Source of the DNA: Candidatus Taenariivivens baikalensis
GTDB taxonomy: Bacteria; Omnitrophota; Omnitrophia; Omnitrophales; Aquincolibacteriaceae
Direction: 5' to 3'
DNA length: 64,000 bases
Assembly (NCBI GenBank): GCA_009691445.1
Contig: SICL01000001.1
Location: forward strand, 129,738-193,737
Below the pieces are notes generated by a model that was not told the DNA's origin, did no database searches, and was given only the letters and a program-made list of their open reading frames with translations. The position numbers were made by a program, and so were the translations under genes. Of this stretch, positions 3,103 through 63,337 are shown one piece after another; position 1 is the stretch's first letter, and the number at the start of each line of letters is the position of its first letter.

Positions 3103-3103
3103 A

Positions 3104-5011: not shown

Positions 5012-5014
5012 AGA

Positions 5015-7346: not shown

Positions 7347-7356
7347 AATCCTTAAA

Positions 7357-9479: not shown

Positions 9480-9482
9480 AGC

Positions 9483-12464: not shown

Positions 12465-12472
12465 GCAACTGC

Positions 12473-15212: not shown

Positions 15213-16374
15213 GCTCTTTTACCGATCCGATGTGGTGATAAAAATCCAGTGTCAATTGCGCCATTTGATGCCATGTATATCGACGGGCGCGGCACAGCCC
15301 CTGAAGCTTAAACCGTTCCGCCGTTTCTGAATCACGGGACAGAACCTCATCCAGCGCCTCCGCCATTTTCTGTGAATCATGAGGATCCACCAGCCGAACA
15401 TCATGTCCGAGATTTTCCTGGTGAGGCGGAATATCGGATGCAATCACGGGAATTCCCGAAGCCATCGCCTCCAGCGGGGGCGATGACCATCCTTCCCAAA
15501 ATGAAGGAAAAAAGAACGTCCGGGCGGCACTGTAAAGCATCGGAAGATCCTCGGATTCTTGATCCAACCAGCCCGTCATAAAAACATCTCCCGTTAAATT
15601 CATGTCTGGAATCAGTTGAGCTAAATCTCGGGCATACGCGGGCATTCCGCCCGCAAGAACCAGCATCAAGTCCGAATACCCTTTTTTCTTTTTTAATAGG
15701 GAAAAGGCTTCAAGAATTCCCTGAATGTTTTTATTCCTCTGAATTCCACCCGCATAAAGCACATAGGGACGTTCAAAACTAAAACGCTTTTTCAGATACG
15801 CACGAGCCTGTTGAATGTCTCGGGGATAAAACTCATTTCCAATCCCAAGCGGAGTCACCTTGATTTTATTTGCCCCCACACCGTAATGCGCCATAAAATC
15901 CTGCTTCATGGACTCAGATACACAGATAAAGTAATCGGCATTCCGAAGCGCTTTCTTCATAAAGGCTTCGTAATAGCGCACATAAGATGGATCTAAATGC
16001 CCAGGAATCCGCAGATGAGCCACGGAATGAATCGTGACAACCAGGGGCAGGCGACCGCGCGGGGGCAGGATTTCTCCAAGAGAATGAAAAAGATCGATTC
16101 CCCCAAGAAATGCTCCCAGCGGAGGAATCCCCCATTCATTCCACAGCCACTTAACGACCCCACCCGGAAGATAGATTAACCGGTTACGCATGCGTGATAA
16201 GTTTGGGAACTGAGGAACGGGATAAGCGGGCTTTCGAAATCTAAAATAGAAAGCAATAAATTCGTCCGTGCTCGTAGTTGACTCGGAGGCCAGGGCCTGA
16301 ATCAAATTTACCGCATATCGGCGAATAGCCCTCTCTCCGTGAATCATTTCGTTACCGTCAATTCCGATTTTCAT
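15205..16374 (-). CDS. GT4 glycosyltransferase
   Basis: EGWSSPPLEAMASGIPVIASDIPPHQE (EX7E region). ATGA overlap with the upstream GT39 gene. Confidence 0.8.
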   Translation of the reverse strand: MKIGIDGNEMIHGERAIRRYAVNLIQALASESTTSTDEFIAFYFRFRKPAYPVPQFPNLSRMRNRLIYLPGGVVKWLWNEWGIPPLGAFLGGIDLFHSLGEILPPRGRLPLVVTIHSVAHLRIPGHLDPSYVRYYEAFMKKALRNADYFICVSESMKQDFMAHYGVGANKIKVTPLGIGNEFYPRDIQQARAYLKKRFSFERPYVLYAGGIQRNKNIQGILEAFSLLKKKKGYSDLMLVLAGGMPAYARDLAQLIPDMNLTGDVFMTGWLDQESEDLPMLYSAARTFFFPSFWEGWSSPPLEAMASGIPVIASDIPPHQENLGHDVRLVDPHDSQKMAEALDEVLSRDSETAERFKLQGLCRARRYTWHQMAQLTLDFYHHIGSVKEHA

Positions 16375-19796: not shown

Positions 19797-21653
19797 TCAG
19801 GCTCGGTTACGAAGTGAAACAACAGGCGCATAGAGAGATCGGCGTTCTCTCACCCACCAAGCCCCTGTTTTCTTATGCGTTTGGGGATCCGCAAAATGGT
19901 AATCATACAGCGTCGCCTGAATGTAGCGCGGTGGATCGTCCGGAAAGGGATTATTCTTCAAAAGCCTTAAGACATCGGGAGATCCTTTAAGCAATTTTTC
20001 ACAGAAGCCGGCAAACCATGGATGTTCTTTGTAACTGCCCAACGCGGCAAACCACATCTGCCAATCCAAGCGCGGCTGATGAGGAAGGTTAAACCCCGGG
20101 CGTCTCATCACATCACCGGGCTTATATTGAAATTCATACGCTTTCCAAGTAATACGATTATTGGATCCTTCGATAATAATTTCCGGGCGCTCCGTCGTCA
20201 TCACCGAGAAAAGCCCATATTGATTAAACGATCGTAAAGGGCGAAGAATATTACTGGGGATCGTTAAAGCGGGAATGGAAAAATTTAAAATAGCCGGGAC
20301 CTGATTCAGAGTTCCCAAAAGAGCCGTCGCCGCAACCGTTCCTACCACCCACTTGGGCCACCCATAATTCTTGGAGAAAGGCGTTCGCTTTTCAAGACTT
20401 TGAAAGAAATAAAGGCAGCTCGCCGGCCAAGTCTGATCATCAATGAGAGGGACACAAAGCACGATCGTGAGTAAATTAAAAAAACAGTAATTACCCGTCA
20501 GCATAATTAGAACCTGAAGCGCAGTAATCGCCGCAGCGGCATAAGAACGAAGTCGGCGCGGCCCCCAAATCAAGAAAGGCGCCAAAAGTTCAACCCCAAA
20601 CATAACAAGGGCAGAAAACTGGTGAAACCCAACGGGAAGAAAATGAAAATACCAGGCCGCCCCGGTCGGAAGCGGTTGAGTTTGATAATGATAAGTCAGC
20701 GCGGTGAGGTGACTCCAGTTCGGATCCCCGCTTCGAAGCTTCATCATCCCGGAAAAAAACATGAGGCGGAAAAGAAGAAAATAAAGTAAAAGACGGATCA
20801 GGTTTGACGCATTGAATCCGCGAAAAACAGGATCGTTTTTTCCGCCCGGCCTCCAGGAGGCCAGAAAAATGGAAAGAAAACCGCTCTCAAGCAAAAGATT
20901 ATCCCATTGAAAGGACATGAAATCCTGGCCTGCGTTCAGCAGGGACAGATAAAGGACCCAAAGGATAAAAAGTACGGGTGCCGGTGAAATTCCTCCAATG
21001 ACCAATAAAGATCCTGCAACTCCCGTCCAACAAACCGTCTGAAGAACTAAGTCGCTCGCATCAAACCAAAACAGGGTCGGAACATGAAAGTAAGCCCCTG
21101 ATCCATAATTCGCATGCAAAAGCGTAAGATACTCTTTAGCGGAAAGAATACCCTTCGAGCCCACCAGGCCCAGGATCTGGGAGGCTAAAGACAAAAATGA
21201 AAATAAATAGATCACGCCCATTAACTTAATAAAAAGCTGCGCGGCAAACCGGTACGTGGACGGGTTTAAATCATCGCCCCAAAGAAAACGTGTCAGATTT
21301 GAAAAGAAAACTCGGTGGGATGCCACAAGCCGGTAAAAGAATTCAGACAATGCCCGGAACCCGGAAACCTTTTGATAAAGCCCAAGAAGCCACGTCTTTC
21401 CCGGAGCGTAAGAAAGCGCGCGGAAAACAGCTTCCGCGCCCTCATAAACATTTCCGTCGGTTTCGATCAGCTGAATCGAACGCTCAAACGACTCTTTTTC
21501 TATTTCGGGATAGATGGCACCCATTTTTTGCGCAGTGTCATAATCCACCCGGGAGTCTGTGAAAACTATCCAGCGATTAATCCACCGGCGGCAAAATCCG
21601 CATTCCCCGTCAAAAATTATGAGGGGCTTTTCGGGAAAATGAGATACGTTCAT
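19797..21653 (-). CDS. DCC1-like thiol-disulfide oxidoreductase (DUF393) fused to an HTTM domain and a lipase-maturation-factor (LMF)-like C-terminal domain
   Basis: IFDGECGFCRRWINRW matches the DCC-family motif. A central multi-TM HTTM-like region follows. The C-terminal ...NPFPDDPPRYIQATLYDYHFA resembles the LMF1-family C-terminus. Start set at the ATG at 21653 (MNVSHFPEK). Confidence 0.6.
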   Translation of the reverse strand: MNVSHFPEKPLIIFDGECGFCRRWINRWIVFTDSRVDYDTAQKMGAIYPEIEKESFERSIQLIETDGNVYEGAEAVFRALSYAPGKTWLLGLYQKVSGFRALSEFFYRLVASHRVFFSNLTRFLWGDDLNPSTYRFAAQLFIKLMGVIYLFSFLSLASQILGLVGSKGILSAKEYLTLLHANYGSGAYFHVPTLFWFDASDLVLQTVCWTGVAGSLLVIGGISPAPVLFILWVLYLSLLNAGQDFMSFQWDNLLLESGFLSIFLASWRPGGKNDPVFRGFNASNLIRLLLYFLLFRLMFFSGMMKLRSGDPNWSHLTALTYHYQTQPLPTGAAWYFHFLPVGFHQFSALVMFGVELLAPFLIWGPRRLRSYAAAAITALQVLIMLTGNYCFFNLLTIVLCVPLIDDQTWPASCLYFFQSLEKRTPFSKNYGWPKWVVGTVAATALLGTLNQVPAILNFSIPALTIPSNILRPLRSFNQYGLFSVMTTERPEIIIEGSNNRITWKAYEFQYKPGDVMRRPGFNLPHQPRLDWQMWFAALGSYKEHPWFAGFCEKLLKGSPDVLRLLKNNPFPDDPPRYIQATLYDYHFADPQTHKKTGAWWVRERRSLYAPVVSLRNRA

Positions 21654-21669
21654 TAGTTTTTCATTCGAT

Positions 21670-22122
21670 TTAAGATATGGTGATTTGATCGGATAACTCA
21701 TTCTCATCATCGGATTGAGCCGGGAAATACTGATGGAGTTTTTCCCCGGCTCGCTCAATCGCTTGAACAATTCCTTCCGCAAACCGGTCCTCACGAAAGG
21801 ATCGAGTCATCTGCTCGCTGATCTCGGTCCAAAAGGATTCGGGAACTTTTTTGTGAATCCCTTCATCCCCGAGGATCGCAAACTTCCGGTTTTTAAGTGC
21901 CAGAAAAATCAAAACCCCGTTTCGGTCTTTGGTTTTTGTCATCCCAAGCTTCTGAAAAATCTCTTGAGCATGCTCCAGAACATCTTTTGTGATTTTCTCA
22001 TCAAGATGGACTCTGATTTCCGCGGAGGTTCTCAACTCAACGCTCTTAATCGCTCGAAAAACAAGATGCTCTTCAGATCGTGAGAAAAAATGCTTCGGAA
22101 AATGCCGGCGATTAAAATTCAT
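21670..22122 (-). CDS. TPM-domain protein (small, soluble)
   Basis: NGVLIFLALKNRKFAILGDEGIH aligns with the NGLILLIFKNDQKMRIEVGYGLE core of the neighbouring TPM protein. Confidence 0.5.
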   Translation of the reverse strand: MNFNRRHFPKHFFSRSEEHLVFRAIKSVELRTSAEIRVHLDEKITKDVLEHAQEIFQKLGMTKTKDRNGVLIFLALKNRKFAILGDEGIHKKVPESFWTEISEQMTRSFREDRFAEGIVQAIERAGEKLHQYFPAQSDDENELSDQITIS

Positions 22123-30580: not shown

Positions 30581-30937
30581 CTACAATTTTTTAGGAAAAA
30601 GAGATTCGAAGGCAGGGTCGCCGAAGTGCTCCTCAAGGTCCTTGTCTTTGCGCATATGCTTAAAGTCGTGGTAGCCGAGCTGGACTGCTTTTTTCAGGGT
30701 CTTTAAGGATTCTTTCTTTTTCCCCACCAGAGCATAACTGCAGCCCAGATTGTAGAAAACAACCGGGTCTTTCTTGCAAAGCGAGGCGAGCCGTTTATCA
30801 ATCTCGAGACCTTTCTCAAAAAGACCTTTGCGAGTATACGCCTCAGCCAGGGGCATCAAGACTTCGATATAAGCCGGCCGCTCGCGAAGAACATTTTCAT
30901 AAAATTTGATTTCAAAATCTAAATGATTTTTATCCAT
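30581..30937 (-). CDS. TPR-repeat protein
   Basis: 118 aa with tetratricopeptide-like repeats (AEAYTRKGLFEKGLEI...YNLGCSYALVGKKKESLKTLKKAVQLG). Confidence 0.6.
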   Translation of the reverse strand: MDKNHLDFEIKFYENVLRERPAYIEVLMPLAEAYTRKGLFEKGLEIDKRLASLCKKDPVVFYNLGCSYALVGKKKESLKTLKKAVQLGYHDFKHMRKDKDLEEHFGDPAFESLFPKKL

Positions 30938-32657
30938 GTTTTTGCTTTTTCTCCGTTATGCGAATGATAAGGCCCTGGATCAAATTCGAATCAAGATTTC
31001 TAGTGTTTCGGACAATTCCGCCCAATTCTTCATTCATTTCTTCGAAGGCAAGCGACCAAATCGGTGTTGAGAGCGCTCTTTCCTCGGGCGTAAACATTTC
31101 TGCCAAATACGCTTCCTTCATCTCGATATTTAGCAAATACTTGAGGCCCTGGACCCGCCACCCTTTTTCGAGAAATTCCATCACCTCGGTCATCGTGAGC
31201 GGTTTAAATTGAATTTTCTTTTTCAGAACATACCACGCAAAGGTTTGTGCGAGTAAAACAAACAGAGTGATTTTGCGCTCACTTTGTTCCTGAATGGACT
31301 TGGAAATCATGATCATCGCCCCGGGAAGTTTCTTTTGGATGACGTCATGAATCAGGAAAAGCTGGTCGAGACCGCGTTTGGCCCGAGCCAAGTCTTCCCG
31401 AGAGACGAAATCCCGGCAGAGAAATTCCTGCTTCGGGTCGGGTTCATAAAATTCAGGGATGGCTTTCAAAAGCCCGCGAAGCATAAGATCGTAAGGGGGA
31501 TCCAAAAAGCCGAGACATTCTTCCTTGGTTCCGCCCCAGTACGTGCGAACTAACTGGAATGCCGAAGTTCTCAAATGATGGAGTTCACCGGACGCAAGCC
31601 GGAAAATCGTTTCAAGCCAATGTTCTTTTAGAATTTTCGCTGCGGCCAAAATATCTTTATCGCACAAGATCTCCAGACCAAGATTCACAAAACGCCTGGC
31701 TCGTTCAATGCCCTGCTTGACCCGCTCCTCGGACGAGAAATCAATTCCATCGCAGGCAATCACCTTGTTCGCCAGCCAAGCAAGTTCTTCCCGGACTTCG
31801 TTAAAAGCGTATTCGTTGTCTTTGGCCAGCAAGACCAGCACCTCATCCAAAAATAATCGGTCTTTACTCCAGAGAGCAATATAATTGGGGGCATGCCGAT
31901 TGGTTTCTTCTTCGGTAAAAGCCGAGGCGGAGTCCTGCGCTTTGAATTTCTTGGGATACTGATGAAATTCTTCGCGAGTCATGGGACTATAAATCATCCG
32001 AGCAGACTCCGGAGAAGGAAATCCTCGTTCGGAAAGCCGGCGGTCACGGCTGGCATAAGCTTCTTCTTCCAGCTGATCGTCGACTTCGGCCAGGATTCCT
32101 TCGAGGATTCCGATATAACGGCCCCGGTGATTTTCAAAAAGGATCTCAAAAGCCCGGCGAACGGATTCCAGATTTTCTTCCCGTACGGCAATAAAATAGT
32201 TGTCATCTAACGTGAAGTAAGGAATGTCTCCCAAAATTTCATCCGTAGCGTACTCACGTTCCGCCTTGATGACTTGAAGGATCATCTTGAATCCCGCGAC
32301 CACCAGCTCATAATCACCAAAGACCAGCCACTGAAGAAGCTTCATATCATCGGCCAAGGTCAGGATTTCAAGCCAGCTCATAAAGCCCTTGATATTAAGG
32401 CGGTCCTTGGACCAGCATTCGATGTCAGAATAAAAACAGAGCTGGGGAAGATCAGCGAAACGAATAATTTCGCTTCGCTCCTCGCTATCCATTTCTTTGG
32501 CAATCAGGAAAAATTCTTCCTGGGAAAGTCCACGCACGAGCCCCAACGGTTCATGAGCCCGAATAAGCAGCTCTGCCTTTTCTTTAATCGGGCTTTGGCG
32601 GAACACTTCTGCCTGCTTTTCCGGGTCTAACGATTCAAATTGTTCAAAATTAATCAT
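30930..32657 (-). CDS. Conserved hypothetical protein (575 aa, soluble)
   Basis: Long ORF with good coding character and no recognised motif. Confidence 0.4.
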   Translation of the reverse strand: MINFEQFESLDPEKQAEVFRQSPIKEKAELLIRAHEPLGLVRGLSQEEFFLIAKEMDSEERSEIIRFADLPQLCFYSDIECWSKDRLNIKGFMSWLEILTLADDMKLLQWLVFGDYELVVAGFKMILQVIKAEREYATDEILGDIPYFTLDDNYFIAVREENLESVRRAFEILFENHRGRYIGILEGILAEVDDQLEEEAYASRDRRLSERGFPSPESARMIYSPMTREEFHQYPKKFKAQDSASAFTEEETNRHAPNYIALWSKDRLFLDEVLVLLAKDNEYAFNEVREELAWLANKVIACDGIDFSSEERVKQGIERARRFVNLGLEILCDKDILAAAKILKEHWLETIFRLASGELHHLRTSAFQLVRTYWGGTKEECLGFLDPPYDLMLRGLLKAIPEFYEPDPKQEFLCRDFVSREDLARAKRGLDQLFLIHDVIQKKLPGAMIMISKSIQEQSERKITLFVLLAQTFAWYVLKKKIQFKPLTMTEVMEFLEKGWRVQGLKYLLNIEMKEAYLAEMFTPEERALSTPIWSLAFEEMNEELGGIVRNTRNLDSNLIQGLIIRITEKKQKHG

Positions 32658-47026: not shown

Positions 47027-48934
47027 TCAAAATTTAATCTTCGGACCAACGCCAAAAAAACTCTCGTCCTTAGGCTCTTTTCGTTTTGAGTCCTGAGAAG
47101 CATCCCGGTCACCACCAGACGCTATTTTAATCGCAAGTGCAGGTAAAGACGAGTTTTTATTTTGAATATCGGTATCCTCTGACTGATTAGGATTAAATTC
47201 AGATTCCTTCCAAGCCGTCCATCGATCCGGCGCTTGGACTAGGATGCCATTAAATATATTAGGGAGTGAAAAATCGATACTGCCTTTCAAGTTAAACCGA
47301 TTTCTCCCCTTAAAAGCCTTAGAATCATTCAAGACGAGCACAGGCGGAACTCCTGAAAACTGGATGTAGGCCCGATCATAAGTTAAATCGCCTGTACGCC
47401 CGTCATGCACCGTAAATTGACCCAAACATTCTGGTTTGAGAAGATTCCCTTCGATTTTAAGTTTGCCGTCCAAAACTCCGCTGACGCTATGCGAAAGAGG
47501 TTTCGTTGCGAGACGATTAATCTTCCCCATATCGAAGTCGTGAATTTGAACTGCCATATTCCCGGACCAATCATGATGAGAAACCGTGATTTCCCCACTG
47601 GCTTGAAAATGATCTCCCCAAGAAGCCTCAAAGTGATCCAGCCCCGTAGCGCTAAGGGAAAACTGACTTTTAAAATCTCGAAGCGGCATGTATTCAAGCA
47701 CCAGATTATCCGAAATAAAACTCCCCTTCAACGATGAGAGCTTAGGGTCTCCTGCGTAGAAAATGGGTTCGAGCTTCATCCTGCCGTGGATAATGCAATC
47801 CAGATCTAGAAATCTGTAATGATCCAGCTGAAGACTTAAATCCACAAGGGAGCGCTGGTAATCGACAGATAAACTAAGCCGTTGTGTTTCGCCCGGCCGC
47901 TGCATATCCAGCGCAATCTTTCCGTTTGTAAGATCCAGGCTGCCATGACCTTCATAACGATGATTCAGATGAAGATCCTCCATCATCATCTGGCCCCCAT
48001 CCAAAGTCACATTTCCGTTCATGGTATGCCTAAGAAGGTTGGCGTTATAAACGCGCGCTTCAAAAGAGCCGCGGGAACTATTAACTTCCAACCGCATCAA
48101 TGGACCTTCCTTCAGCCTCCAGTTTAAAAACAGCTGCGGATCTTTATTGTAATTTTCCAAGCTACCATAAAGCACCGTGTCCCAACCCTGGACTTTCGCT
48201 TCAAGGAAGTCTAAAAAAATATTTTGATTTTCCCAGCGCAAATGTCCACGAAATGACTTAAAGGGAAGTGCTATTTTATCTCCCAGCTCTACATCCTGAA
48301 GATCGATTTCAAGGTGATGCGTGTGGTGCTGCGGATCAATCGTCCCATGAATCACCGCCTTGCCCTGAATCGCTCCGGTGAAGGACGTTTCGAAAAAAAC
48401 CTGCAGCTTATTTGAAGACATCAAACTTAGTTTTCCCCGCATTCCATGAGCTTCAATCTTTGTCTTCAAGTACGGAATTGTCCACACAACTTCCCCTCCT
48501 TGAAAACTCAGATTGGAGAGCTTTGATTTCCCCGCCTGAAGCCCTAGGGAATTAAAAAAATTATAAGGAATCTCTCCGCTCTCGACCAGCATTTTTGGTG
48601 CTTTGAACACAATTTCCGATGGGGATCGCACTTTTCGCAGAAGAATTTGAAGGGGATCAAATCGAAAGACAATATTTTGCACCCGTATTTGATAAGAACT
48701 CTTCACGCTTGGCGAATGAATCTGCAGACCTGAAACATCAATCTCATTATACGAACCAAGATTCATCGTCTTAATTTCAACATTGGCTCGCAGGACCCTG
48801 CCAACACTTTCTTCGGCCAAGCGCTTAAATTCATTCCTCCCCATAAAATGATGAATAAGTAATGGGGGCAGAGTACATACGGCGACGAAAAAAATTGTTA
48901 CAGACAGGAAAATGAATTTCCAGCTGCCCCGCAT
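47027..48934 (-). CDS. AsmA-like/TamB-like envelope assembly protein (N-terminal signal anchor)
   Basis: 635 aa, one N-terminal TM helix, a beta-rich repetitive body, and a position next to the mla operon. Confidence 0.35.
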   Translation of the reverse strand: MRGSWKFIFLSVTIFFVAVCTLPPLLIHHFMGRNEFKRLAEESVGRVLRANVEIKTMNLGSYNEIDVSGLQIHSPSVKSSYQIRVQNIVFRFDPLQILLRKVRSPSEIVFKAPKMLVESGEIPYNFFNSLGLQAGKSKLSNLSFQGGEVVWTIPYLKTKIEAHGMRGKLSLMSSNKLQVFFETSFTGAIQGKAVIHGTIDPQHHTHHLEIDLQDVELGDKIALPFKSFRGHLRWENQNIFLDFLEAKVQGWDTVLYGSLENYNKDPQLFLNWRLKEGPLMRLEVNSSRGSFEARVYNANLLRHTMNGNVTLDGGQMMMEDLHLNHRYEGHGSLDLTNGKIALDMQRPGETQRLSLSVDYQRSLVDLSLQLDHYRFLDLDCIIHGRMKLEPIFYAGDPKLSSLKGSFISDNLVLEYMPLRDFKSQFSLSATGLDHFEASWGDHFQASGEITVSHHDWSGNMAVQIHDFDMGKINRLATKPLSHSVSGVLDGKLKIEGNLLKPECLGQFTVHDGRTGDLTYDRAYIQFSGVPPVLVLNDSKAFKGRNRFNLKGSIDFSLPNIFNGILVQAPDRWTAWKESEFNPNQSEDTDIQNKNSSLPALAIKIASGGDRDASQDSKRKEPKDESFFGVGPKIKF

Positions 48935-48948: not shown

Positions 48949-51420
48949 TTACAAAGCTTGTTCGAATTGGATACTTTCTCCACGCAAGAGTGCTCTCAAT
49001 TTCATGCCCTCCTGGAATTTGCCGGAGAGAATATCTTCAGCTAATATATTTTCGATATATCGCTGGATAGTCCGCTTAAGAGGCCTAGCCCCGAACACGG
49101 GATCGTAGCCCTTATCAATCAGAAACTTAATCACTTCGGGGGAAAGAATAAGCTCCAGCTTCTTATCCTTCAAGCGATCCTTAACTTCCTTAAGTTCGAA
49201 CTCAATGATTTGTTCTAGATCCTGCCGGACAAGCGGATGAAAGACCACAATATCATCCACTCGATTGATGAACTCAGGGCGAAAGAATTTCTTAACTTCA
49301 TCCAGAAGTTTATGCTTGAGATGCTCGTAATTAATCTCATCGGGATCCGTACTAAATCCCATAGTTGCATTTTTCTTCACCAGATCCGCGCCGACATTCG
49401 ACGTCATAATAATAATCGTGTTTCGAAAATCAACTTTCCGGCCAAATGAATCGGTAATACGGCCGTCCTCCATCACTTGAAGCATGATATTAAACACATC
49501 CGGATGAGCCTTCTCAATTTCGTCAAAAAGCACCACACTATAGGGACGGCGCCGAACCTTTTCTGTCAGTTGGCCGCCTTCTTCGTATCCTACATATCCT
49601 GGAGGCGCTCCAACAAGACGTGAGACATTAAACTTTTCGCCGTATTCGGAACAATCGACCACGACCATCGCATCTTCATCCCCAAACATAAATCCAGCCA
49701 AGGCACGGGCAAGGAGTGTTTTACCAACACCGGTAGGCCCTAAGAAAATAAAGGCTCCGATGGGACGCCGCGGATTGCGAATCCCTGAACGAGAACGGCG
49801 AACCGCATTGGAAATAGCTTTCACTGCTTCCGCCTGACCAATCACACGGTTATGGAGTTCATCTTCCATCCGTAAGAGTCGTGAAATTTCCTTTTCTTCA
49901 ATTTTCTGAAGAGGAACGCCTGTCCATTTAGAAACTATGTGGGCTATGTCTTCCTTCGTTACCTGAATTTCAATTTCTGATTTTGACTCCTTCCAGCTTT
50001 TTTTGATACGGGCCAACTCTTCTTTAGCCTTGCGCTCTTCATCTCTAAGCTTGGCAGCCTTCTCAAAATCCTGCCCCTTGATCGCAGCTTCTTTCTCACG
50101 CTTAAAACTTTCGATTTCAAGCTCATATTTCTTGAGCTCCTTGGGCAAAGTCGTCACGGAAAGACGAGCGCGCGATGCAGCTTCATCAATGATGTCAATC
50201 GCTTTATCCGGGAGAAAACGTCCGCTGATATAACGGTCAGAAAGTTTAGCTGCAGATTCAAGCGCTTCATCCAGAATTTTCACACGATGATGCGCTTCAT
50301 ATTTATCGCGGATCCCTTTCAGAATCTGAATCGTTTGATCCACCGAGGGCGGATCGACATTGACAGTCTGAAAGCGGCGGGCAAGTGCCGCATCTTTTTC
50401 AATATATTTACGATATTCATCAAGCGTAGTGGCGCCAATGCACTGCAACTCTCCCCGCGCCAAGGCCGGCTTCAGAATGTTAGAGGCATCAATCGCACCT
50501 TCAGCACCACCGGCGCCCACCAAGGTATGAAGCTCATCAATAAAAATGATAACATTCTCCGTCCGGCGTATTTCATCCATCACAGCTTTAATACGCTCTT
50601 CAAATTGTCCCCGGTATTTTGTCCCGGCCACCATCAGAGGAAGATCCAGCACGACGATCCTTTTATCACTCAGGATTTCAGGAACATCGGCCGACACAAT
50701 CCGCTGGGCCAAACCTTCCACAATGGCCGTCTTTCCAACCCCCGCTTCTCCGAGAAGCACTGGATTGTTTTTTGTCCGACGGGCAAGGATTTGAATCACA
50801 CGCTCAATCTCATCTTCGCGCCCTACAACAGGATCAAGTTTCCCATCACGAGCAAGCTGGGAAAGATCTTGTCCAAATGAGTCAAGGGCCGGAGTTTTTG
50901 TTTTTGACTTCCCCCCTGTTACCGCCGGACCACCACCGCTTCCCTGGTTAGCCGCACCACCTGCCCCTGATCCGCTTGGTGTGGATGATCCTAAAAGTTT
51001 GATCACTTCCGCACGAACTTTATTTAAATCTAATCCGACATTCATTAAGACATGACTGGCAACCCCTTCACCTTCCTTAATGAGACCCAGAAGAAGATGT
51101 TCCGTACCAATATAGTTATGTCCAAGGCGCCGAGCCTCATCCATCGCAAGTTCGATCACCTTTTTTGCCTTAGGAGTGAACGGAATATCCCCAGAGACAA
51201 TCGTGCTCGGGCCAAACTGAACTAGTTTCTCCACTTCAAGCCGGATGGTCTCCAGAGAAAGTCCTAGATTCTGAAGGACCGCAGCCGCCACACTCTCACC
51301 TTCCTTAATCAATCCGAGTAAGATGTGCTCTGTTCCAATGTAATCGTGATTAAAGCGTTTCGCTTCTTCTTTGGCTAAGATAATGACTTTTCTTGCGCGT
51401 TCCGTAAAACGATCGAACAT
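48949..51420 (-). CDS. clpC: ATP-dependent Clp protease ATP-binding subunit ClpC
   Basis: Two Clp_N repeats, two AAA+ modules ([13 protein letters not shown]; GPTGVGKT) and a UVR motif. Confidence 0.9.
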
Positions 51421-51477
51421 AAATCCTCCACCTTCTTAAGTTATGATAATAAGAATACGGCCATAAGGACAAAAAGC

Positions 51478-52548
51478 TTAGCTTAAAGAAACCTTTCCCA
51501 GTTTTTCCCGAATCACTTGCGCCCGAAGAATGTCTCGTTCCTGGGCATTCAGGACAGACCCACTCATCTTTTGCAAATGCGCCGGCTGAATATACAAAAA
51601 CAAAGAATGTAGTTCTTCGCGACTGAGAGCGCTTGTCATAATGCCCATATTAATTCCCAACTGGACCAGGGAAAGATACTGCGTAGCTTCCGTCGATGAA
51701 ATAACGCGGGCGGATTTAAGAATTCCAAGTGCCCGCCAAGCCGGATCCTCAAACTTTTGTTTTTTTTTGTCGAGCAGATGCTGTCGCGCCTCACGCTCAT
51801 GATCCGTAATCTGCCGAATCACGGAAACAAGATTATCAATAATTTCCTCTTCATTCTGCCCCAGAGTCATTTGGTTGGAAAATTGGAAATAATCACCAAT
51901 GGCCTGTGTCCCCTCTCCATAAAGACCCCGGGTTGCCAAATTAAGCTTGGTGAGAGCCTGCAAAATCTTGTTGATTTGCTTGGTCAGCACCAGCCCTGGA
52001 ATATGAACCATACATGAAGCGCGGAGACCCGTACCCGCATTCGTAGGACAGGCCGTTAAATACCCTAGGCGGGAATCAAAGGCGTAATCCAGACCGCCTC
52101 GTTCAATCTCAGTGTCGAGTTGGTCAATAATATGCCAAGCTTTTTTCAGGTTGAATCCCGACTGAAAAGCCTGCATTCGCAAATGATCTTCTTCAAGGAT
52201 CATCACGCTAATTTCTTGATTCGGAGTCATCGACACCGCTTTGTGGCCTTTCTCAACCGCATGCTCCAAACTGACTAGATGGCGCTCGACAAGAAATTGC
52301 CGCTCCAACTCTGTCAAATCGGCATAGAGAAAAAAATAAGCGGATTTCATGGACGGTGTTTTTGTAAGGATATCCTGAACACGTTTAATAATTTCATCCT
52401 GCTCTCGGGTCTCAAGGCGCGGCGTATAGGAAAACCCCTGAAGATTACGGGCGATCCGGATACGCGAACTGATCACAATGTCATGATCAGGCCCCTCGGC
52501 ACGAAGCCATTCCGCCGTGTTTTTAACTAGCAGATCAATATCGCTCAT
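51478..52548 (-). CDS. mcsB: Protein arginine kinase McsB
   Basis: ATP:guanido phosphotransferase domain (SSRIRIARNLQGFSY...CPTNAGTGLRASCMVHIPGL). Confidence 0.85.
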   Translation of the reverse strand: MSDIDLLVKNTAEWLRAEGPDHDIVISSRIRIARNLQGFSYTPRLETREQDEIIKRVQDILTKTPSMKSAYFFLYADLTELERQFLVERHLVSLEHAVEKGHKAVSMTPNQEISVMILEEDHLRMQAFQSGFNLKKAWHIIDQLDTEIERGGLDYAFDSRLGYLTACPTNAGTGLRASCMVHIPGLVLTKQINKILQALTKLNLATRGLYGEGTQAIGDYFQFSNQMTLGQNEEEIIDNLVSVIRQITDHEREARQHLLDKKKQKFEDPAWRALGILKSARVISSTEATQYLSLVQLGINMGIMTSALSREELHSLFLYIQPAHLQKMSGSVLNAQERDILRAQVIREKLGKVSLS

Positions 52549-53078
52549 TTAGAAGTTTTTCGGTTTGGCGGGCTTTTCGACTTTCTGGATTTAGTTTCAA
52601 GCTTCTTAATTTCATCGCGAATACCGGCAGCCTCTTCAAATTTCTCTTCCTGAACACATTGCCGCAGCTTTTGTTGAAGCCTTGAAAGATCGCCTACCTC
52701 CAGACGGTTTTTCTGATTAAGGCGGGATGGCGTCTTGCCAACATGCTGAGTTGATCTCTGAATTCGACGGATCAAGGGATCAAGAACTTTTTCGAAAACC
52801 TTGTAACAGACGGAACATCCTAAACGCCCTTTTTTGCTGAGCTCGACAAAGGTCATCCCGCATTGGCTGCATTTTTCCGCGGACTTTTCTGCCTGCGATA
52901 CCCAGGCTGATGGGTCGGCCAAACTCCCCAAAAGCTCGCTCACGTTAAAGTGAGTTTTGAAGTCCGTCCCCTTTTCCTGAGCACAAACCTCACAAAGATG
53001 GATTTCCACCATCTGGCTATTGGTAATTTCCGTCAAATGAATGGTTGCGTCTTGGACGCCACAAATATTACACACCAT
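52545..53078 (-). CDS. mcsA: McsA (zinc-finger and UVR-motif activator of McsB)
   Basis: CNICG...CEVC and CSQCG...CSVC zinc fingers and a C-terminal UVR-like motif. Start at the ATG at 53078. Confidence 0.7.
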   Translation of the reverse strand: MVCNICGVQDATIHLTEITNSQMVEIHLCEVCAQEKGTDFKTHFNVSELLGSLADPSAWVSQAEKSAEKCSQCGMTFVELSKKGRLGCSVCYKVFEKVLDPLIRRIQRSTQHVGKTPSRLNQKNRLEVGDLSRLQQKLRQCVQEEKFEEAAGIRDEIKKLETKSRKSKSPPNRKTSK

Positions 53079-53151
53079 TTTTTTATTATAGCACAAAACG
53101 CCTGATGCGTTTAAAGGCAATCTTGATCAAAAGACAGGAAGGGAAAACTTT

Positions 53152-57789: not shown

Positions 57790-57951
57790 GTCATGGACTT
57801 AAGTTGAAATAAGAATGCACGGATTATAGTACACTCACTTCTCTAGTGTCAATGAACGGACGGTCATTTTTAAGAAAACTCAAGAAAAACTCCGAACGAT
57901 CGTTTATAATGAAAACATTGAAATGTTTCTTAATCTACAACGAGGTTAGCG

Positions 57952-58374
57952 ATGAAAAAGAAAATCGGTGAAGTGCTCATTGAAAAGAACTTGGTCACAC
58001 AAGAACAAATCGACGAAATCCTGAAGGAACAAAAACACAGCAATAAATTAATCGGGGAGCTCCTGGTCGAAAAGCAGATCCTTTCCGAAATTCTTTTATT
58101 TCAGGCACTCGCTCATCAGCACCGGATGGGATTTGTGGATCTTGAAGTCCACAAGATGAATCCGGATTTGATCCATAAAATACCCCTCGCCATGGCTCAA
58201 GCCTATTCACTTCTGCCGCTAGAATTGCGGGAGGGCCTTTTGCTCGTGGCTGTCTCCAATCCTCGCACCTCCATTCCTACCGAAGAAATAAAGAATTTGA
58301 CAGGGGCAGAGGAAGTTCAAACTGTTTTATGTCTTCCGGATCAAATTCAAGAAATGATCCGCAAGAAATATTAA
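57952..58374 (+). CDS. Stand-alone T2SS-E N-terminal (GspE-N/MshEN-like) domain protein, putative c-di-GMP receptor
   Basis: Tandem 24-residue motifs KIGEVLIEKNLVTQEQIDEILKEQ, then a 5-residue spacer, then LIGELLVEKQILSEILLFQALAHQ. A GspE-N fold signature follows (FVDL...IP...A...LPL). Confidence 0.7.
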   Translation: MKKKIGEVLIEKNLVTQEQIDEILKEQKHSNKLIGELLVEKQILSEILLFQALAHQHRMGFVDLEVHKMNPDLIHKIPLAMAQAYSLLPLELREGLLLVAVSNPRTSIPTEEIKNLTGAEEVQTVLCLPDQIQEMIRKKY

Positions 58375-58389
58375 TTCAAAGGCCCTTTT

Positions 58390-58839
58390 ATGAGTTGGCG
58401 CATCGGGGAAATCCTGGTTCAAAAAAAATTGCTCACCTGGGATCAACTGCAAGAGATTCTGGAGGCGCAAAAAGATTCCCCGAAACTGATCGGGGAAATC
58501 CTGGTCGAAACGGGAATCGTCAATAGATTCTTTCTCTATCAAGCCTTGGCGGAGCAATATAAAATTCGCTTCATCGATTTAGAGCGAACTCACATTAATC
58601 CCAAAGCCGTCGAAGTGGTTCCCCGCGAAATCGCGGAACGTTATCACCTGATTCCGATTGAAATCCGCACGGGAAAATTAATCATCGGGATTTCCAATCC
58701 GCTCAACATTTGGCCGGAATCCGAAATCAGGCAGCTCACGGGAATCGTGGAAATCCAAACCGTCCTTTGCCTGCCAAATCAAATTGAGAAAGCGATTGCT
58801 GAAGAATACGCGCCAATTGACGCAACTCAACCCGCCTAA
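58390..58839 (+). CDS. Second stand-alone GspE-N/MshEN-like domain protein (paralogue of the preceding gene)
   Basis: Motifs RIGEILVQKKLLTWDQLQEILEAQ, a 5-residue spacer, then LIGEILVETGIVNRFFLYQALAEQ; the same fold pattern. Confidence 0.7.
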   Translation: MSWRIGEILVQKKLLTWDQLQEILEAQKDSPKLIGEILVETGIVNRFFLYQALAEQYKIRFIDLERTHINPKAVEVVPREIAERYHLIPIEIRTGKLIIGISNPLNIWPESEIRQLTGIVEIQTVLCLPNQIEKAIAEEYAPIDATQPA

Positions 58840-58960
58840 TTTCAACCTGGCATTACAGGCTGGTCATCACCCTGAGCGCAGAGAAGGGGTTCACGAAGAG
58901 ATTCTTCACGGAGCGCTTCGTAAGTTTACTTGCTTCGGTCAGGATGACAAAAAATGTTTT

Positions 58961-59836
58961 TTATCTGAAGAGATTGTGATAAATCTGGCGGGTCGCATTC
59001 GATTTATTCAGGGTGTAAAAATGCAAGCCGGGTACTCCCCCATCAATTAATTCCCGACACTGGCGTGTTGTAAACTCAATCCCGTAAGCTTCAATAGCGA
59101 TTTGATTTTCTCCGTATTTCTGAATCGCCTGATTCATTTCATCCGGAATCGATGCACCGCACATTTGTGCGAACTTCTGGATCTGCGGACCCTGGGTCAC
59201 AGGCATAATTCCGGGCACAATCGGAATTGAGATCCCTATTTTCCGGGCCCGCTCCACAAAATGGAAATACTTCCGGTTGTCAAAAAAGAGCTGAGTGATC
59301 ACAACATCCGCGCCCTGATCCACTTTGTGTTTGAGATTTTTGAGATCCAGATCCTTGTCCTTGCATTCCACGTGACCTTCTGGATACCCCGCAATCGCTA
59401 AAGAGAAGGCTCTCGATAAGGTTGGATGTCTGCGAATAAAATTCACAAGTTCAGAAGCGTGCGTAAATCCATTAGAAACTGGTTTAAACTCCGTTTCTCC
59501 TTTCGGAGGATCGCCGCGCAACGCGACAATATTTTCGATGCCGCTGGATTGAAGATCCGCCAGGACTTTTTCGATTTCATCACGGGTATGAGCTACACAG
59601 GTTAAATGCGCAGCCGCTTCAATTCCAATTTCCTTTTTAATCTTGCTGACAATTCTGAGAGTATTGGAACGGGTCGTTCCCAAAGCACCATAAGTAACGG
59701 AAATAAAGGAGGGCTTGAGTTCTTTAAGCTCCCGGGCAACTTCAAAAAGTTTCAACTCCCCCTCATCCGTCTTGGGAGGAAAAAATTCAAAAGAGACAGT
59801 ACATTTCTGCTTCGCGTAATAGTCTTTGATCTTCAT
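58961..59836 (-). CDS. metF: 5,10-methylenetetrahydrofolate reductase
   Basis: SFEFFPPKT start and MTHFR family pattern; diverges from metH across a 54 bp spacer. Confidence 0.88.
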   Translation of the reverse strand: MKIKDYYAKQKCTVSFEFFPPKTDEGELKLFEVARELKELKPSFISVTYGALGTTRSNTLRIVSKIKKEIGIEAAAHLTCVAHTRDEIEKVLADLQSSGIENIVALRGDPPKGETEFKPVSNGFTHASELVNFIRRHPTLSRAFSLAIAGYPEGHVECKDKDLDLKNLKHKVDQGADVVITQLFFDNRKYFHFVERARKIGISIPIVPGIMPVTQGPQIQKFAQMCGASIPDEMNQAIQKYGENQIAIEAYGIEFTTRQCRELIDGGVPGLHFYTLNKSNATRQIYHNLFR

Positions 59837-59890
59837 AAGGGCACCTATGGTATCGAAACCCCCTTAACCGTTCAAGCGCTTTGTGTTAGA

Positions 59891-63337
<3,447 letters not shown>

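What the first reader, a model, noticed from the sequence alone, without database searches (positions are those of the whole stretch)
57952..58839. Tandem stand-alone MshEN/GspE-N domain proteins with intact c-di-GMP-binding-type motifs and no attached ATPase
Two adjacent paralogous genes (139 and 149 aa) encode only the N-terminal domain of type II secretion/type IV pilus ATPases. Each carries two 24-residue motifs matching the MshEN consensus RLGxx(L/V/I)(L/V/I)xxG(L/V/I)(L/V/I)xxxxLxxxLxxQ, separated by a 5-residue spacer. Examples are RIGEILVQKKLLTWDQLQEILEAQ-KDSPK-LIGEILVETGIVNRFFLYQALAEQ. That consensus is the c-di-GMP binding site described for MshE. No pilus or secretion genes are nearby. 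The pair diverges from lysS and has its own promoter region. They are candidate small c-di-GMP receptor or adaptor proteins.
Basis: partly seen in the sequence, partly recalled or inferred. Interest (0 to 1): 0.55.

Follow-up and report, generated by a model that had tools for sequence, protein, structure and literature searches.

The report
Free-standing c-di-GMP sensor domain gene pair
Two neighbouring small genes in an uncultured Omnitrophota bacterium each encode only the c-di-GMP-sensing "MshEN" domain that normally sits on pilus and secretion motor ATPases, so they are probably free-floating second-messenger receptors whose target is still unknown.

Summary
Window 57952-58374 (140 aa, not 139) and 58390-58839 (149 aa) are two intact + strand genes, 47% identical. 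Each is a complete MshEN domain and nothing else. Both pass the curated cut-offs of Pfam PF05157 and NCBIfam NF053729 ("c-di-GMP_motif"). Their AlphaFold models (pLDDT 91-95) superpose best on c-di-GMP-bound VcMshEN and Thermus PilF GSPII-B.

The ligand-contact residues are present. The first motif residues (K/L and R/L) resemble the 6 nM binder PilF GSPII-B. The "turn" glycine is missing in 3 of 4 motifs, and Leu2 is Ile.

The source is a Candidatus Omnitrophota MAG, where both genes are annotated "hypothetical". The genes belong to a stand-alone MshEN family found in about 28 Omnitrophota species and always next to metF: co-directional in 21 loci, convergent in the window's clade. The upstream copy is an old, separately conserved paralogue.

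There are no pilus, secretion or GGDEF/EAL genes in the 64 kb window. A third stand-alone MshEN class in the phylum sits directly upstream of a PilB/GspE ATPase whose own motif I is degenerate. One genome carries both kinds.

Best reading: trans-acting c-di-GMP receptors, with the type IV pilus ATPase the leading but unproven target. Binding is untested. I rate it a new variant of a known kind, of moderate interest.

The parts
57952..58374 (+). Gene 1 (MSR76774.1, EXS63_00890): a 140-aa stand-alone MshEN protein, the more divergent paralogue with its own ortholog clade.
   Evidence: ORF. Pfam and NCBIfam hits. Orthologues P0104-P0111 at 55-81% identity. AF2 model with pLDDT 94.6. Best fold match is PilF GSPII-B bound to c-di-GMP, TM 0.78-0.80. 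Accession.
58390..58839 (+). Gene 2 (MSR76775.1, EXS63_00895): a 149-aa stand-alone MshEN protein, a member of the widespread metF-linked family.
   Evidence: ORF. HMM hits. About 35 close homologues of 141-156 aa. AF2 model with pLDDT 91.3. Best fold match is 5htl (VcMshEN with c-di-GMP), TM 0.76-0.81.
57961..58032 (+). Gene 1, motif I (residues 4-27): KIGEVLIEKNLVTQEQIDEILKEQ.
   Evidence: Read from the sequence. Column statistics. K at position 1 matches PilF GSPII-B K167 (PMC11731258).
58048..58119 (+). Gene 1, motif II (residues 33-56): LIGELLVEKQILSEILLFQALAHQ, after the 5-residue spacer KHSNK.
   Evidence: Read from the sequence. L at position 1 matches PilF GSPII-B L196. Position 10 is Q rather than G.
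58399..58470 (+). Gene 2, motif I (residues 4-27): RIGEILVQKKLLTWDQLQEILEAQ.
   Evidence: Read from the sequence. phmmer aligns residues 4-112 to VcMshE residues 9-117, so R4 = R9, G6 = G11 and Q27 = Q32.
58486..58557 (+). Gene 2, motif II (residues 33-56): LIGEILVETGIVNRFFLYQALAEQ, after the spacer KDSPK.
   Evidence: Read from the sequence. G35, L53 and Q56 are invariant in 63 family members.
58123..58365 (+). Gene 1, C-terminal subdomain (MshEN_C / T2SSE_N1-like, residues 58-138). This is the probable partner-binding surface.
   Evidence: Pfam PF05157 match covers residues 58-138. The model shows an alpha/beta subdomain with strands E87-93, E96-101 and E121-126.
58558..58812 (+). Gene 2, C-terminal subdomain (residues 57-141). 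It carries the family signature SNPLNxWPE and TVLCLP.
   Evidence: Pfam match covers residues 57-141. Conservation. The signature is shared with the T4aP-linked stand-alone proteins but not with the ATPase N-termini, which have SDP.
57905..57910 (+). Candidate -10 box TATAAT for the pair, 41 nt upstream of the gene 1 ATG. The -35 is weak.
   Evidence: TCGTyTATAAT is conserved upstream of the gene 1 orthologues in the window, L006, L007 and L008. The strict two-hexamer scan did not call it.
57942..57945 (+). Shine-Dalgarno-like GAGG, 6 nt before the gene 1 start codon.
   Evidence: Read from the sequence. GGAG/GAGG is found at the same place in L006, L007 and L008.
57823..57852 (-). Divergent lysS promoter, a perfect TTGACA-18-TATAAT. 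It belongs to the neighbouring gene but shares the intergenic region.
   Evidence: 12 of 12 match. Conserved in 10 related loci.
58863..58948 (+). Long imperfect hairpin between the convergent gene 2 and metF, followed by A6TGT6. A possible shared terminator, held with low confidence.
   Evidence: MFE -36.6 kcal/mol and z = -2.06 against shuffles. The terminator scan did not call it.

Best explanation
The two genes encode small cytoplasmic single-domain receptors for cyclic di-GMP. Each protein is a complete MshEN domain. It has an N-terminal four-helix bundle whose two 24-residue half-sites should together clamp one c-di-GMP molecule, and a C-terminal T2SSE_N1-like alpha/beta subdomain. With no output domain attached, the proteins must signal in trans. 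When loaded with ligand (inferred), they would dock onto another protein through the C-terminal subdomain or through a composite protein-ligand surface. The most likely partner class is the type IVa pilus / T2SS-like machinery of Omnitrophota: a PilB/GspE ATPase or its platform proteins. The reason is that a paralogous stand-alone MshEN class in the same phylum, and in at least one genome that also has a metF-linked copy, is encoded immediately upstream of such an ATPase, and that ATPase's own sensor half-site is degenerate. What is shown: domain identity, fold, conservation of contact residues, a phylum-wide family, an old duplication under purifying selection, and fixed adjacency to metF. 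What is inferred: ligand binding (about 0.75), action in trans, and the pilus ATPase as target (about 0.3). The two paralogues may differ in affinity or partner. Gene 1 carries the K/L first-residue pattern of the 6 nM binder PilF GSPII-B, and gene 2 carries R/L.
For: HMM membership is above curated cut-offs for both proteins. The best PDB sequence hits are c-di-GMP-binding MshEN/GSPII domains. AF2 models with pLDDT 91.3 and 94.6 match 5htl and 8pdk (c-di-GMP-bound) at TM 0.76-0.81. G3 of both motifs and Q24 of motif II are invariant in 63 homologues (G6, G35, Q56, plus L9); L21 of both motifs is at least 90% conserved. The first-residue pattern fits the extended consensus (R/K/L)LG, and a hydrophobic residue there predicts high affinity (PMC11731258). 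Isolated MshEN or MshEN_N domains bind c-di-GMP on their own as monomers (PMC5013675; PMC6957770). The family is conserved in about 28 Omnitrophota species as 141-153-aa stand-alone genes, whereas all hits outside the phylum are full-length ATPases. dN is 0.15-0.40 with dS saturated. The gene 1 clade has 83.5% bootstrap support and the tandem pair is kept in three lineages. Stand-alone MshEN with intact motifs lies directly upstream of a GspE/PilB ATPase with degenerate motif I in L068-L072, L084 and one ENA contig, with stop/start overlap in L070 and L071. Assembly GCA_964385615.1 holds both this type (L069) and a metF-linked copy (L025). Type IVa pili are near-universal in Omnitrophota (PMC10066038). 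PilZ-MshEN-ATPase fusions, pilZ genes and GGDEF domains are reported in the phylum (preprint 10.1101/2023.11.21.568195).
Against: Ligand binding was not measured. The turn glycine (position 10) is absent in 3 of 4 motifs, which fails even the relaxed [GAS] search motif of Wang et al. Position 2 is Ile rather than Leu. No diguanylate cyclase, phosphodiesterase, PilZ, pilus or secretion gene lies in the 64 kb window, and there is no c-di-GMP riboswitch. No canonical GG[DE]EF was found in 515 kb of related Omnitrophota loci. A bootstrapped tree gives no support (2.5%) for a specific sister relation between the metF-linked family and the pilus-linked stand-alone class. Most Omnitrophota PilB-like ATPases (79 of 118) keep both motifs and so need no external sensor. 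In the large sister clade, motif I begins with His and the motif II Gln is replaced by Arg, so binding may not be universal across the family.
Confidence: 0.6

Rival explanations
1. Regulators tied to methylene-THF reductase (MetF) or one-carbon/methionine metabolism. The MshEN protein would bind MetF, or control its activity or expression, in response to c-di-GMP.
For: metF is the immediate neighbour in every assessable locus of the family. There are 21 co-directional loci, of which 15 have a metF-to-MshEN spacer under 30 nt or an overlap of the two ORFs. There are 9 convergent loci, including the window. All other neighbours differ between the two arrangements: lysS/metH in one, kinase-REC-GATase/fumC-rpsB in the other.
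Against: No precedent exists for MshEN or c-di-GMP control of MetF. The adjacency may be inherited synteny in a compact genome, since rpsB-tsf-pyrH are equally conserved nearby. In clade B a conserved -10-like box in the short spacer suggests that the MshEN gene has its own promoter. No interaction evidence is available.
Confidence: 0.1
2. Ligand-independent adaptor or decoy. The MshEN fold would serve only as a protein-protein interaction module, as the degenerate PilB N-terminus of Xanthomonas binds PilZ. It might, for example, compete with ATPase N-domains for PilM/GspL/PilZ partners.
For: The fold also matches the X. citri PilB(N)-PilZ complex 7lkm and the non-binding XpsE N-domain 2d28. 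The turn glycines are missing. Clade B has His1 and Q24R. A stand-alone MshEN + PilZ gene pair exists elsewhere.
Against: Contact residues G3, L17, L21 and Q24 are under very strong conservation in the stand-alone family. In known non-binders (XpsE; the Omnitrophota group-A ATPase motif I) exactly these positions decay (PMC5013675).
Confidence: 0.15
3. A c-di-GMP buffer or sponge. Abundant small high-affinity binders would set the free c-di-GMP level rather than relay it to a specific target. The two paralogues would give two thresholds.
For: There is no output domain and no conserved partner gene. The first-residue pattern predicts high affinity. Two paralogues carry different first residues.
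Against: The strongly conserved C-terminal subdomain surface (SNPLNxWPE, TVLCLP) is not needed for binding, because the isolated MshEN_N subdomain alone binds. That argues for a partner interface.
Confidence: 0.08
4. The receptors bind a different cyclic dinucleotide, such as 3'3'-cGAMP, rather than c-di-GMP.
For: According to Wang et al. 2016, VcMshEN can also bind cGAMP (section heading). No diguanylate cyclase was seen in the sequence available here.
Against: The half-sites are symmetric and guanine-type in both motifs. PilZ and GGDEF domains are reported in the phylum.
Confidence: 0.05
5. Remnants of a decayed PilB/GspE gene: two N-terminal fragments left after loss of the ATPase part, with no function.
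For: Both proteins are homologous to ATPase N-termini, and gene fission of MshEN from ATPases does occur in the phylum.
Against: The ORFs are intact, of conserved length and position in about 28 species. dS is saturated while dN stays low. No ATPase remnant lies downstream, where metF sits instead. The family-specific conserved signature is absent from the ATPases.
Confidence: 0.01

Closest known systems
Vibrio cholerae MshE N-terminal domain (MshEN, PDB 5HTL; Wang et al. 2016, PMC5013675)
   Same: It has the same two-subdomain fold (TM about 0.8). It has the same 24 + 5 + 24 residue binding module, with G3, L17, L21 and Q24 in both halves. phmmer aligns it with a constant +5 residue offset.
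   Different: MshEN is the N-terminus of a 575-aa pilus ATPase inside the msh operon and regulates it in cis. The window proteins end after the domain and lie far from any pilus gene. Other differences: position 1 is K/L or R/L rather than R/R, position 2 is Ile, the turn Gly is mostly missing, and the Asp of SDP (D108) is Asn.
Thermus thermophilus PilF GSPII-B domain (PDB 8PDK; Neissner et al. 2024, PMC11731258)
   Same: It is the best structural match of gene 1. Gene 1 shares its K (motif I) and L (motif II) first residues, the feature shown to give a KD of 6 nM without any arginine contact.
   Different: GSPII-B is one of three tandem domains fused to the ATPase, and its motif II is one residue shorter. 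In the window the 'tandem' arrangement is at the level of genes, not domains.
Stand-alone MshEN proteins encoded upstream of GspE/PilB in Omnitrophota F-type-ATPase/T4aP loci (P0038, L069 4561-4986; uncharacterised)
   Same: They come from the same phylum and have the same size (141-153 aa). They are 36-44% identical, have intact motifs, and share the SNPLxxWP signature. One genome has both kinds.
   Different: They are embedded in a pilus operon, with a 12-14-nt gap or an overlapping stop/start to an ATPase whose motif I is degenerate. The window genes sit beside lysS and metF. No specific sister relation is supported.
Pseudomonas aeruginosa PA3740 (MshEN plus a highly diverged T2SSE_N1; listed in Wang et al. 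2016, Supplementary Table 4)
   Same: It is an MshEN protein with no ATPase or enzymatic output domain. It is reported to bind c-di-GMP and to affect swarming.
   Different: It carries an extra, highly diverged second subdomain and is proteobacterial. I did not compare the sequences here, so this resemblance rests on the paper only.
Single-domain PilZ adaptor proteins (for example MapZ; general knowledge)
   Same: [quoted passage not shown]
   Different: The fold and binding mode are unrelated.

Membership tests
MshEN domain (Pfam PF05157 / NCBIfam NF053729) | Match to the curated family HMMs above their cut-offs. | tested here: met
   PF05157 scores 56.3 and 57.5 bits (cut-off 23.1). NF053729 scores 52.9 and 55.9 bits (cut-off 38) over residues 4-56.
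MshEN domain (Pfam PF05157 / NCBIfam NF053729) | Two-subdomain fold: an N-terminal four-helix bundle plus a T2SSE_N1-like alpha/beta subdomain. | tested here: met
   The AF2 models (pLDDT 91.3 and 94.6) have helices H5-11, H17-28, H34-41 and H46-56 followed by beta strands. The top PDB matches are 5htl and 8pdk at TM 0.76-0.81.
c-di-GMP-binding MshEN (Wang 2016; Neissner 2024 extended consensus) | Two 24-residue motifs joined by a 5-residue spacer (a 53-residue module). | tested here: met
   Residues 4-27, 28-32 and 33-56 in both proteins.
c-di-GMP-binding MshEN (Wang 2016; Neissner 2024 extended consensus) | Ligand-contact residues: (R/K/L)1, L2, G3, L17, L21 and Q24 in both motifs. | tested here: met
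   Gene 1 has K-I-G..I..L..Q and L-I-G..L..L..Q. Gene 2 has R-I-G..L..L..Q and L-I-G..L..L..Q. Ile replaces Leu at position 2 in all four motifs and at position 17 in gene 1 motif I; these are conservative changes. G3 (both motifs) and Q24 of motif II are invariant in 63 homologues; L21 (both motifs) is kept in 90% or more.
c-di-GMP-binding MshEN (Wang 2016; Neissner 2024 extended consensus) | Conserved turn glycine at motif position 10 (G18/G47 of VcMshE). | tested here: not met
   Gly is present only in gene 2 motif II. Gene 1 has N and Q, and gene 2 motif I has K. This residue is structural, not a ligand contact. M. xanthus and G. metallireducens PilB also carry N there. The models still predict the helix-turn-helix. 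It weakens confidence in binding but does not exclude it.
c-di-GMP-binding MshEN (Wang 2016; Neissner 2024 extended consensus) | Measured binding of c-di-GMP, with a KD from nM to low uM. | not testable with these tools
   This needs ITC, DRaCALA or DSF on purified protein.
c-di-GMP signalling network of the host | Presence of GGDEF diguanylate cyclases in the same genome. | tested here: inconclusive
   None was found in the 64 kb window, and there is no canonical GG[DE]EF in 515 kb of related loci. Relatives do carry a degenerate GGDEF domain with RxxD on a histidine kinase near metF-MshEN and PilZ-fused ATPases. A preprint reports GGDEF domains and pilZ genes in Omnitrophota. The rest of this genome is not available.
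T2SS / type IV pilus assembly ATPase (GspE/PilB/MshE) | A C-terminal T2SSE ATPase domain (PF00437) with Walker motifs. | tested here: not met
   The proteins end at residues 140 and 149. There is no PF00437 hit, no ATPase ORF downstream, and tblastn with an ATPase core finds nothing in the window. They are not members of this family.

The most novel reading that the evidence does not exclude
Omnitrophota use free-standing MshEN proteins as detachable c-di-GMP sensor subunits. In the F-type-ATPase/type IVa pilus 'symbiosis' loci, the sensor has been split from a motor ATPase whose own half-site has decayed. A second, phylum-wide lineage (the window's genes) has been fixed next to metF. That lineage may plug the same second messenger into a non-pilus target such as one-carbon metabolism, or act as orphan sensors that tune the pilus motor from a distance. 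The tandem paralogues would provide two affinities or two partners.
Probability: 0.2. Interest if true: 0.7.

Novelty: new variant of a known kind. Interest (0 to 1): 0.45.

Why it matters
Every MshEN domain studied so far is fused to the enzyme it regulates: a pilus or secretion ATPase, the NfrB glycosyltransferase, or a kinase. A conserved family that consists of the sensor alone would show that MshEN, like PilZ, also works as a diffusible adaptor. It would add a receptor class to an uncultured phylum whose predicted predatory or symbiotic lifestyle depends on type IV pili. The split sensor/ATPase loci give a natural system for asking how MshEN talks to the motor. The strict metF linkage gives a concrete, testable lead to a possible non-pilus output. 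If the proteins simply bind c-di-GMP and nothing else emerges, the finding is an expected extension of a known domain.

Tried and rejected
- **Riboswitch search.** An Rfam gathering scan of the whole window, looking for c-di-GMP riboswitches or other RNAs, found nothing.
- **Genome scan query.** The wide family alignment A1 was too diverse to seed a genome scan. The narrower alignment A2 worked.
- **dN/dS.** Synonymous sites are saturated for all informative pairs, so only dN could be reported.
- **First tree.** The first NJ tree placed the pilus-linked P0038 as sister to the window family. A larger tree with 200 bootstraps gives that grouping only 2.5% support, so I dropped the claim. A Biopython bootstrap run timed out before that.
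- **External sensors for degenerate ATPases, as a general rule.** I rejected this idea. 79 of 118 Omnitrophota-type PilB/GspE N-termini keep both motifs, and only the 39-member group next to stand-alone genes has lost motif I.
- **Diguanylate cyclase search.** A regex search for GG[DE]EF in 515 kb of Omnitrophota loci gave no hit. The only GGDEF-family domain seen is degenerate.
- **Pseudogene or fragment reading.** Rejected on conservation.
- **Strict promoter and terminator scans.** These called no + strand promoter before gene 1 and no terminator after gene 2. The -10 box and the hairpin reported here rest on cross-locus conservation and folding and are tentative.
- **Literature.** Searches found no paper that characterises a single-domain MshEN protein. 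Supplementary Table 4 of Wang et al. lists no stand-alone architecture apart from PA3740-like proteins.
Full report
**Observation**

The window holds two + strand ORFs exactly at the stated coordinates. Gene 2 is 58390-58839 (ATG, 149 aa). A 15-nt spacer separates them. The proteins are 47% identical over 140 residues, E = 1e-48.

Both pass the curated cut-offs of two independent models:
- Pfam MshEN PF05157: 56.3 and 57.5 bits against a cut-off of 23.1. [quoted passage not shown]
- NCBIfam NF053729 "c-di-GMP_motif": 52.9 and 55.9 bits against a cut-off of 38, over residues 4-56.

No other domain is present and no ATPase follows.

**Motif anatomy**

The published consensus is RLGxx(L/V/I)(L/V/I)xxG(L/V/I)(L/V/I)xxxxLxxxLxxQ (PMC5013675). 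Against it:
- Gene 1 reads KIGEVLIEKNLVTQEQIDEILKEQ - KHSNK - LIGELLVEKQILSEILLFQALAHQ.
- Gene 2 reads RIGEILVQKKLLTWDQLQEILEAQ - KDSPK - LIGEILVETGIVNRFFLYQALAEQ.

phmmer aligns gene 2 residues 4-112 to VcMshE residues 9-117. This gives R4 = R9, G6 = G11, L20/L24 = L25/L29, Q27 = Q32, G35 = G40, L49/L53 = L54/L58 and Q56 = Q61. The residues Wang et al. identify as ligand contacts are therefore all present. Ile replaces Leu at position 2 in all four motifs.

Three deviations matter:
- **Position 1.** It is K/L in gene 1 and R/L in gene 2. Neissner et al. (PMC11731258) showed that exactly K167/L196 in Thermus PilF GSPII-B give a KD of 6 nM. They extended the consensus to (R/K/L)LG and proposed that a hydrophobic first residue predicts very high affinity.
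- **Position 10.** The glycine is absent in three of four motifs (N, Q, K). Wang et al. describe G18/G47 as turn residues, not contacts. M. xanthus and G. metallireducens PilB carry N there. The AlphaFold models still predict the helix-turn-helix.
- **The Asp of "SDP".** This is D108 of MshE, which is dispensable there. It is Asn in this family.

**Structure**

AlphaFold2 with family alignments gave confident models: gene 2 at pLDDT 91.3 and pTM 0.80, gene 1 at pLDDT 94.6 and pTM 0.84. Foldseek against the PDB gave these best matches:
- Gene 2: 5htl, VcMshEN with c-di-GMP, TM 0.76-0.81.
- Gene 1: c-di-GMP-bound PilF GSPII-B (8pdk, 9glg and related entries), TM 0.77-0.80.

Next came the X. citri PilB(N)-PilZ complex and the non-binding XpsE N-domain. 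Nothing outside this fold scored.

**Source and annotation**

The proteins are MSR76774.1 and MSR76775.1, locus tags EXS63_00890 and EXS63_00895. They are annotated "hypothetical protein" in a Candidatus Omnitrophica/Omnitrophota MAG, on a 195-kb contig.

**Surroundings**

I scanned essentially every ORF of 120 aa or more in the 64 kb against Pfam. The content is housekeeping:
- a polysaccharide biosynthesis cluster (about 0.8-18 kb);
- mutS and mutL;
- several aminoacyl-tRNA synthetases;
- mlaEFD;
- clpC, mcsB and mcsA;
- ilvE;
- lolCDE-type genes;
- lysS, then the pair, then metF (convergent) and metH.

There is no pilus, T2SS, PilZ, GGDEF, EAL or HD-GYP gene, and no Rfam family, so no c-di-GMP riboswitch.

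The 162-nt lysS/gene 1 spacer holds a perfect TTGACA-18-TATAAT for lysS on the minus strand. On the plus strand a TATAAT at 57905-57910 is conserved upstream of the gene 1 orthologues in four loci. A GAGG lies 6 nt before the ATG. The short gene 1-gene 2 spacer suggests co-transcription. A long hairpin at 58863-58948 (z = -2.06) separates gene 2 from metF.

**The family**

- Gene 2 has about 35 close homologues of 141-156 aa carrying only PF05157.
- Gene 1 has its own orthologues, P0104-P0111, at 55-81% identity. All homologues of gene 2 are closer to gene 2 than to gene 1.
- A scan of one genome per GTDB species returned 57 loci.
- Every hit at 39% identity or above is an Omnitrophota gene of 141-153 aa.
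- Every weaker hit is the N-terminus of a 560-970-aa ATPase. These come from Planctomycetota, Acidimicrobiales, Desulfobacterota, Bdellovibrionota and others.
- In a 63-sequence alignment G6, L9, G35 and Q56 are invariant, and L24, L38 and L53 are at least 90% conserved.
- Between orthologues dN is 0.15-0.40 while dS is saturated.

The tandem pair is kept in a near-identical contig (L005), in an ENA contig (81%/79% identity) and in GCA_964581425.1 (L006). Related genomes have only a gene-2-type copy (L001, L003, L004, L012, L025) or only a gene-1-type copy (L008). In a bootstrapped NJ tree the gene 1 clade has 83.5% support and the whole metF-linked family 60%. The duplication is therefore old, and both copies are maintained.

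**A fixed neighbour**

tblastn synteny shows metF next to the MshEN gene in every assessable locus:
- **Convergent**, as in the window (lysS | MshEN -> <- metF | metH): nine loci.
- **Co-directional**, with metF immediately upstream: 21 loci. In 15 of these 21 the spacer is under 30 nt (18-28 nt) or the two ORFs overlap.

In the co-directional clade the conserved array is: SDR, C-methyltransferase, [PAS-HisKA-HATPase-GGDEF], REC, (GATase), metF, MshEN, fumC-like lyase, rpsB, tsf, pyrH. The kinase's GGDEF domain has lost GG[DE]EF but keeps an RxxD. Only the metF-MshEN adjacency is common to both arrangements. This may be inherited synteny or a functional link, and I cannot decide between them. 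In the co-directional clade motif I starts with His and the motif II Gln is Arg. Binding competence may therefore vary across the family. The window proteins keep the canonical Gln residues.

**A lead to the partner**

A third stand-alone class (P0038; 36-44% identical to the window proteins, intact motifs, shared SNPLxxWP signature) lies directly upstream of a GspE/PilB-type ATPase in an operon. That operon also carries GspF/PilC, pseudopilins, PilM/N and PilO/GspM, and sits just after F-type ATPase subunits (L068, L069, an ENA contig). A metagenome scan found the same split arrangement in L070, L071, L072 and L084, with overlapping stop and start codons in L070 and L071. Thirteen related loci (L073-L083, L085 and L086) instead encode a fused MshEN-ATPase of about 523-560 aa; in all of them except L086 the gene follows F-type ATPase subunit genes. 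These match the F-type-ATPase/type-4a-pilus loci that Seymour et al. describe across Omnitrophota (PMC10066038).

The ATPase next to the stand-alone gene belongs to a 39-member group whose own motif I is degenerate (G3 to S/T/E/K, L21 to Q/E/R/K) while motif II is intact. A second group of 79 Omnitrophota-type ATPases keeps both motifs. Assembly GCA_964385615.1 carries both the pilus-linked stand-alone gene (L069) and a metF-linked one (L025).

Together these results show that free-standing MshEN proteins in this phylum can be pilus-motor components. They make the pilus ATPase the most plausible target class for the window proteins. The inference has two weaknesses. The bootstrapped tree does not unite the two stand-alone classes (2.5%). 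The nearest relatives of the window family (P0036, P0039, P0146, P0160) have unknown context.

**Wider picture**

A profile search of 1.84 billion cluster representatives found 24,806 MshEN proteins at E of 1e-3 or below. Among the best 150, about 35 are stand-alone proteins of 141-158 aa. There are also forms of about 200 aa with an extra MshEN_N, and ATPase-less (MshEN)2 and (MshEN)3 proteins. Elsewhere a stand-alone MshEN is paired with a PilZ gene. Omnitrophica also have PilZ-MshEN-ATPase fusions.

The stand-alone architecture is thus common in sequence space. I found no paper that characterises one, and Wang et al.'s architecture table does not list it apart from PA3740.

**Mechanism**

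Isolated MshEN or MshEN_N domains bind c-di-GMP as monomers with 1:1 stoichiometry. VcMshEN_N(1-62) has a KD of 0.35 uM and CtPilB(1-146) a KD of 107 nM. Removing the domain raises the ATPase activity of CtPilB.

I therefore propose that each window protein binds one c-di-GMP in its four-helix bundle. It would then act in trans through its conserved C-terminal subdomain, most likely on a PilB/GspE-type motor or its platform. The two paralogues would differ in affinity or partner.

My probability estimates are:
- c-di-GMP binding: about 0.75;
- trans-acting receptor overall: about 0.6;
- pilus ATPase as target: about 0.3;
- MetF or one-carbon link: about 0.1;
- ligand-independent adaptor: about 0.15;
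- buffer: about 0.08;
- pseudogene: about 0.01.

**What cannot be settled here**

Three things remain open: ligand binding, the diguanylate cyclase content of this genome, and the partner. The window has no GGDEF gene, and 515 kb of related loci contain no canonical GG[DE]EF. However, PilZ fusions, a degenerate GGDEF with an I-site-like RxxD, and a preprint reporting GGDEF domains and pilZ genes in Omnitrophota indicate that the phylum uses c-di-GMP.

**Verdict**

It is a new variant of a known kind: the MshEN receptor domain as an autonomous, conserved, duplicated single-domain protein. It is of moderate interest, and two added leads make it experimentally tractable: the strict metF linkage and the split sensor/motor pilus loci.

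Noticed in passing
L013-L031, L061 (e.g. L031 6399-7934 and 7955-8326): In about 18 Omnitrophota species a PAS-HisKA-HATPase kinase carries a C-terminal GGDEF-family domain that has lost GG[DE]EF (now K[ND][ST]K[AV]I) but keeps RxxD. A REC protein follows it. Both lie co-directionally two genes upstream of metF-MshEN. This could be a c-di-GMP-sensing kinase linked to the receptor gene.
   Followed up: partly
L068-L072, L084 versus L073-L086: F-type-ATPase/type IVa pilus loci come in two forms. One is a fused 523-560-aa MshEN-ATPase with intact motifs. The other is a split form: a stand-alone MshEN (intact motifs) plus a 572-705-aa ATPase whose own motif I is degenerate. Stop and start codons overlap in L070 and L071.
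   Followed up: partly
L013, L022-L024, L026, L029-L031 (metF-MshEN spacer): The 18-28-nt spacer between metF and the MshEN gene holds a conserved CCGTA[GCA]AATAG (-10-like) box 8-12 nt before the ATG, with no Shine-Dalgarno sequence. This suggests a separate promoter and a near-leaderless mRNA.
   Followed up: no
L066 1423-2266; L067 2773-3616: A stand-alone MshEN gene (P0073, 152 aa) is followed after 13 nt by a stand-alone PilZ gene (123 aa). This is reminiscent of the Xanthomonas PilB(N)-PilZ complex. The organism is unknown.
   Followed up: no
P0350, P0373 (Candidatus Omnitrophica proteins): These 722-728-aa ATPases have PilZ-MshEN-T2SSE architecture, meaning two different c-di-GMP receptor domains on one pilus or secretion motor.
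   Followed up: no
window 48949-53120 (-): A clpC / mcsB (ATP:guanido phosphotransferase, protein arginine kinase type) / UVR-motif mcsA-like operon. It is conserved at the same place in related Omnitrophota contigs (L001, L003, L006). This system is best known from Firmicutes.
   Followed up: no
window 19797-21794 (-): A 665-aa protein that combines a DCC1-like thiol-disulfide oxidoreductase domain with LMF1 and LMF1_C (lipase maturation factor) domains.
   Followed up: no
window 30930-32657 (-) and 47027-48934 (-): A full-length DUF6178 protein (575 aa), and a 635-aa ORF with no Pfam family (only a weak TamB-like hit) immediately upstream of mlaE-mlaF-mlaD.
   Followed up: no
window 795-17960 (-): A long co-directional polysaccharide biosynthesis cluster: five GT4 and one GT2 glycosyltransferases, three methyltransferases, an asparagine synthase homologue, a flippase, a PMT_2-type transferase, and two to three ORFs with no family.
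   Followed up: no
window 57823-57852 (-): A perfect sigma-70 consensus promoter (TTGACA, 18 nt, TATAAT) upstream of lysS. It is conserved in ten related loci.
   Followed up: partly
window 59606-63337 (+): The mechanical metH ORF starts at 59606 and overlaps metF on the other strand. The orthologous gene call in L005 (1148 aa) implies that the true start is near 59890.
   Followed up: no
P0115, P0117, P0137, P0147: ATPase-less proteins made of two or three complete MshEN domains in tandem (293-464 aa). These are fused counterparts of the tandem-gene arrangement, although they are not close relatives of the window genes.
   Followed up: no
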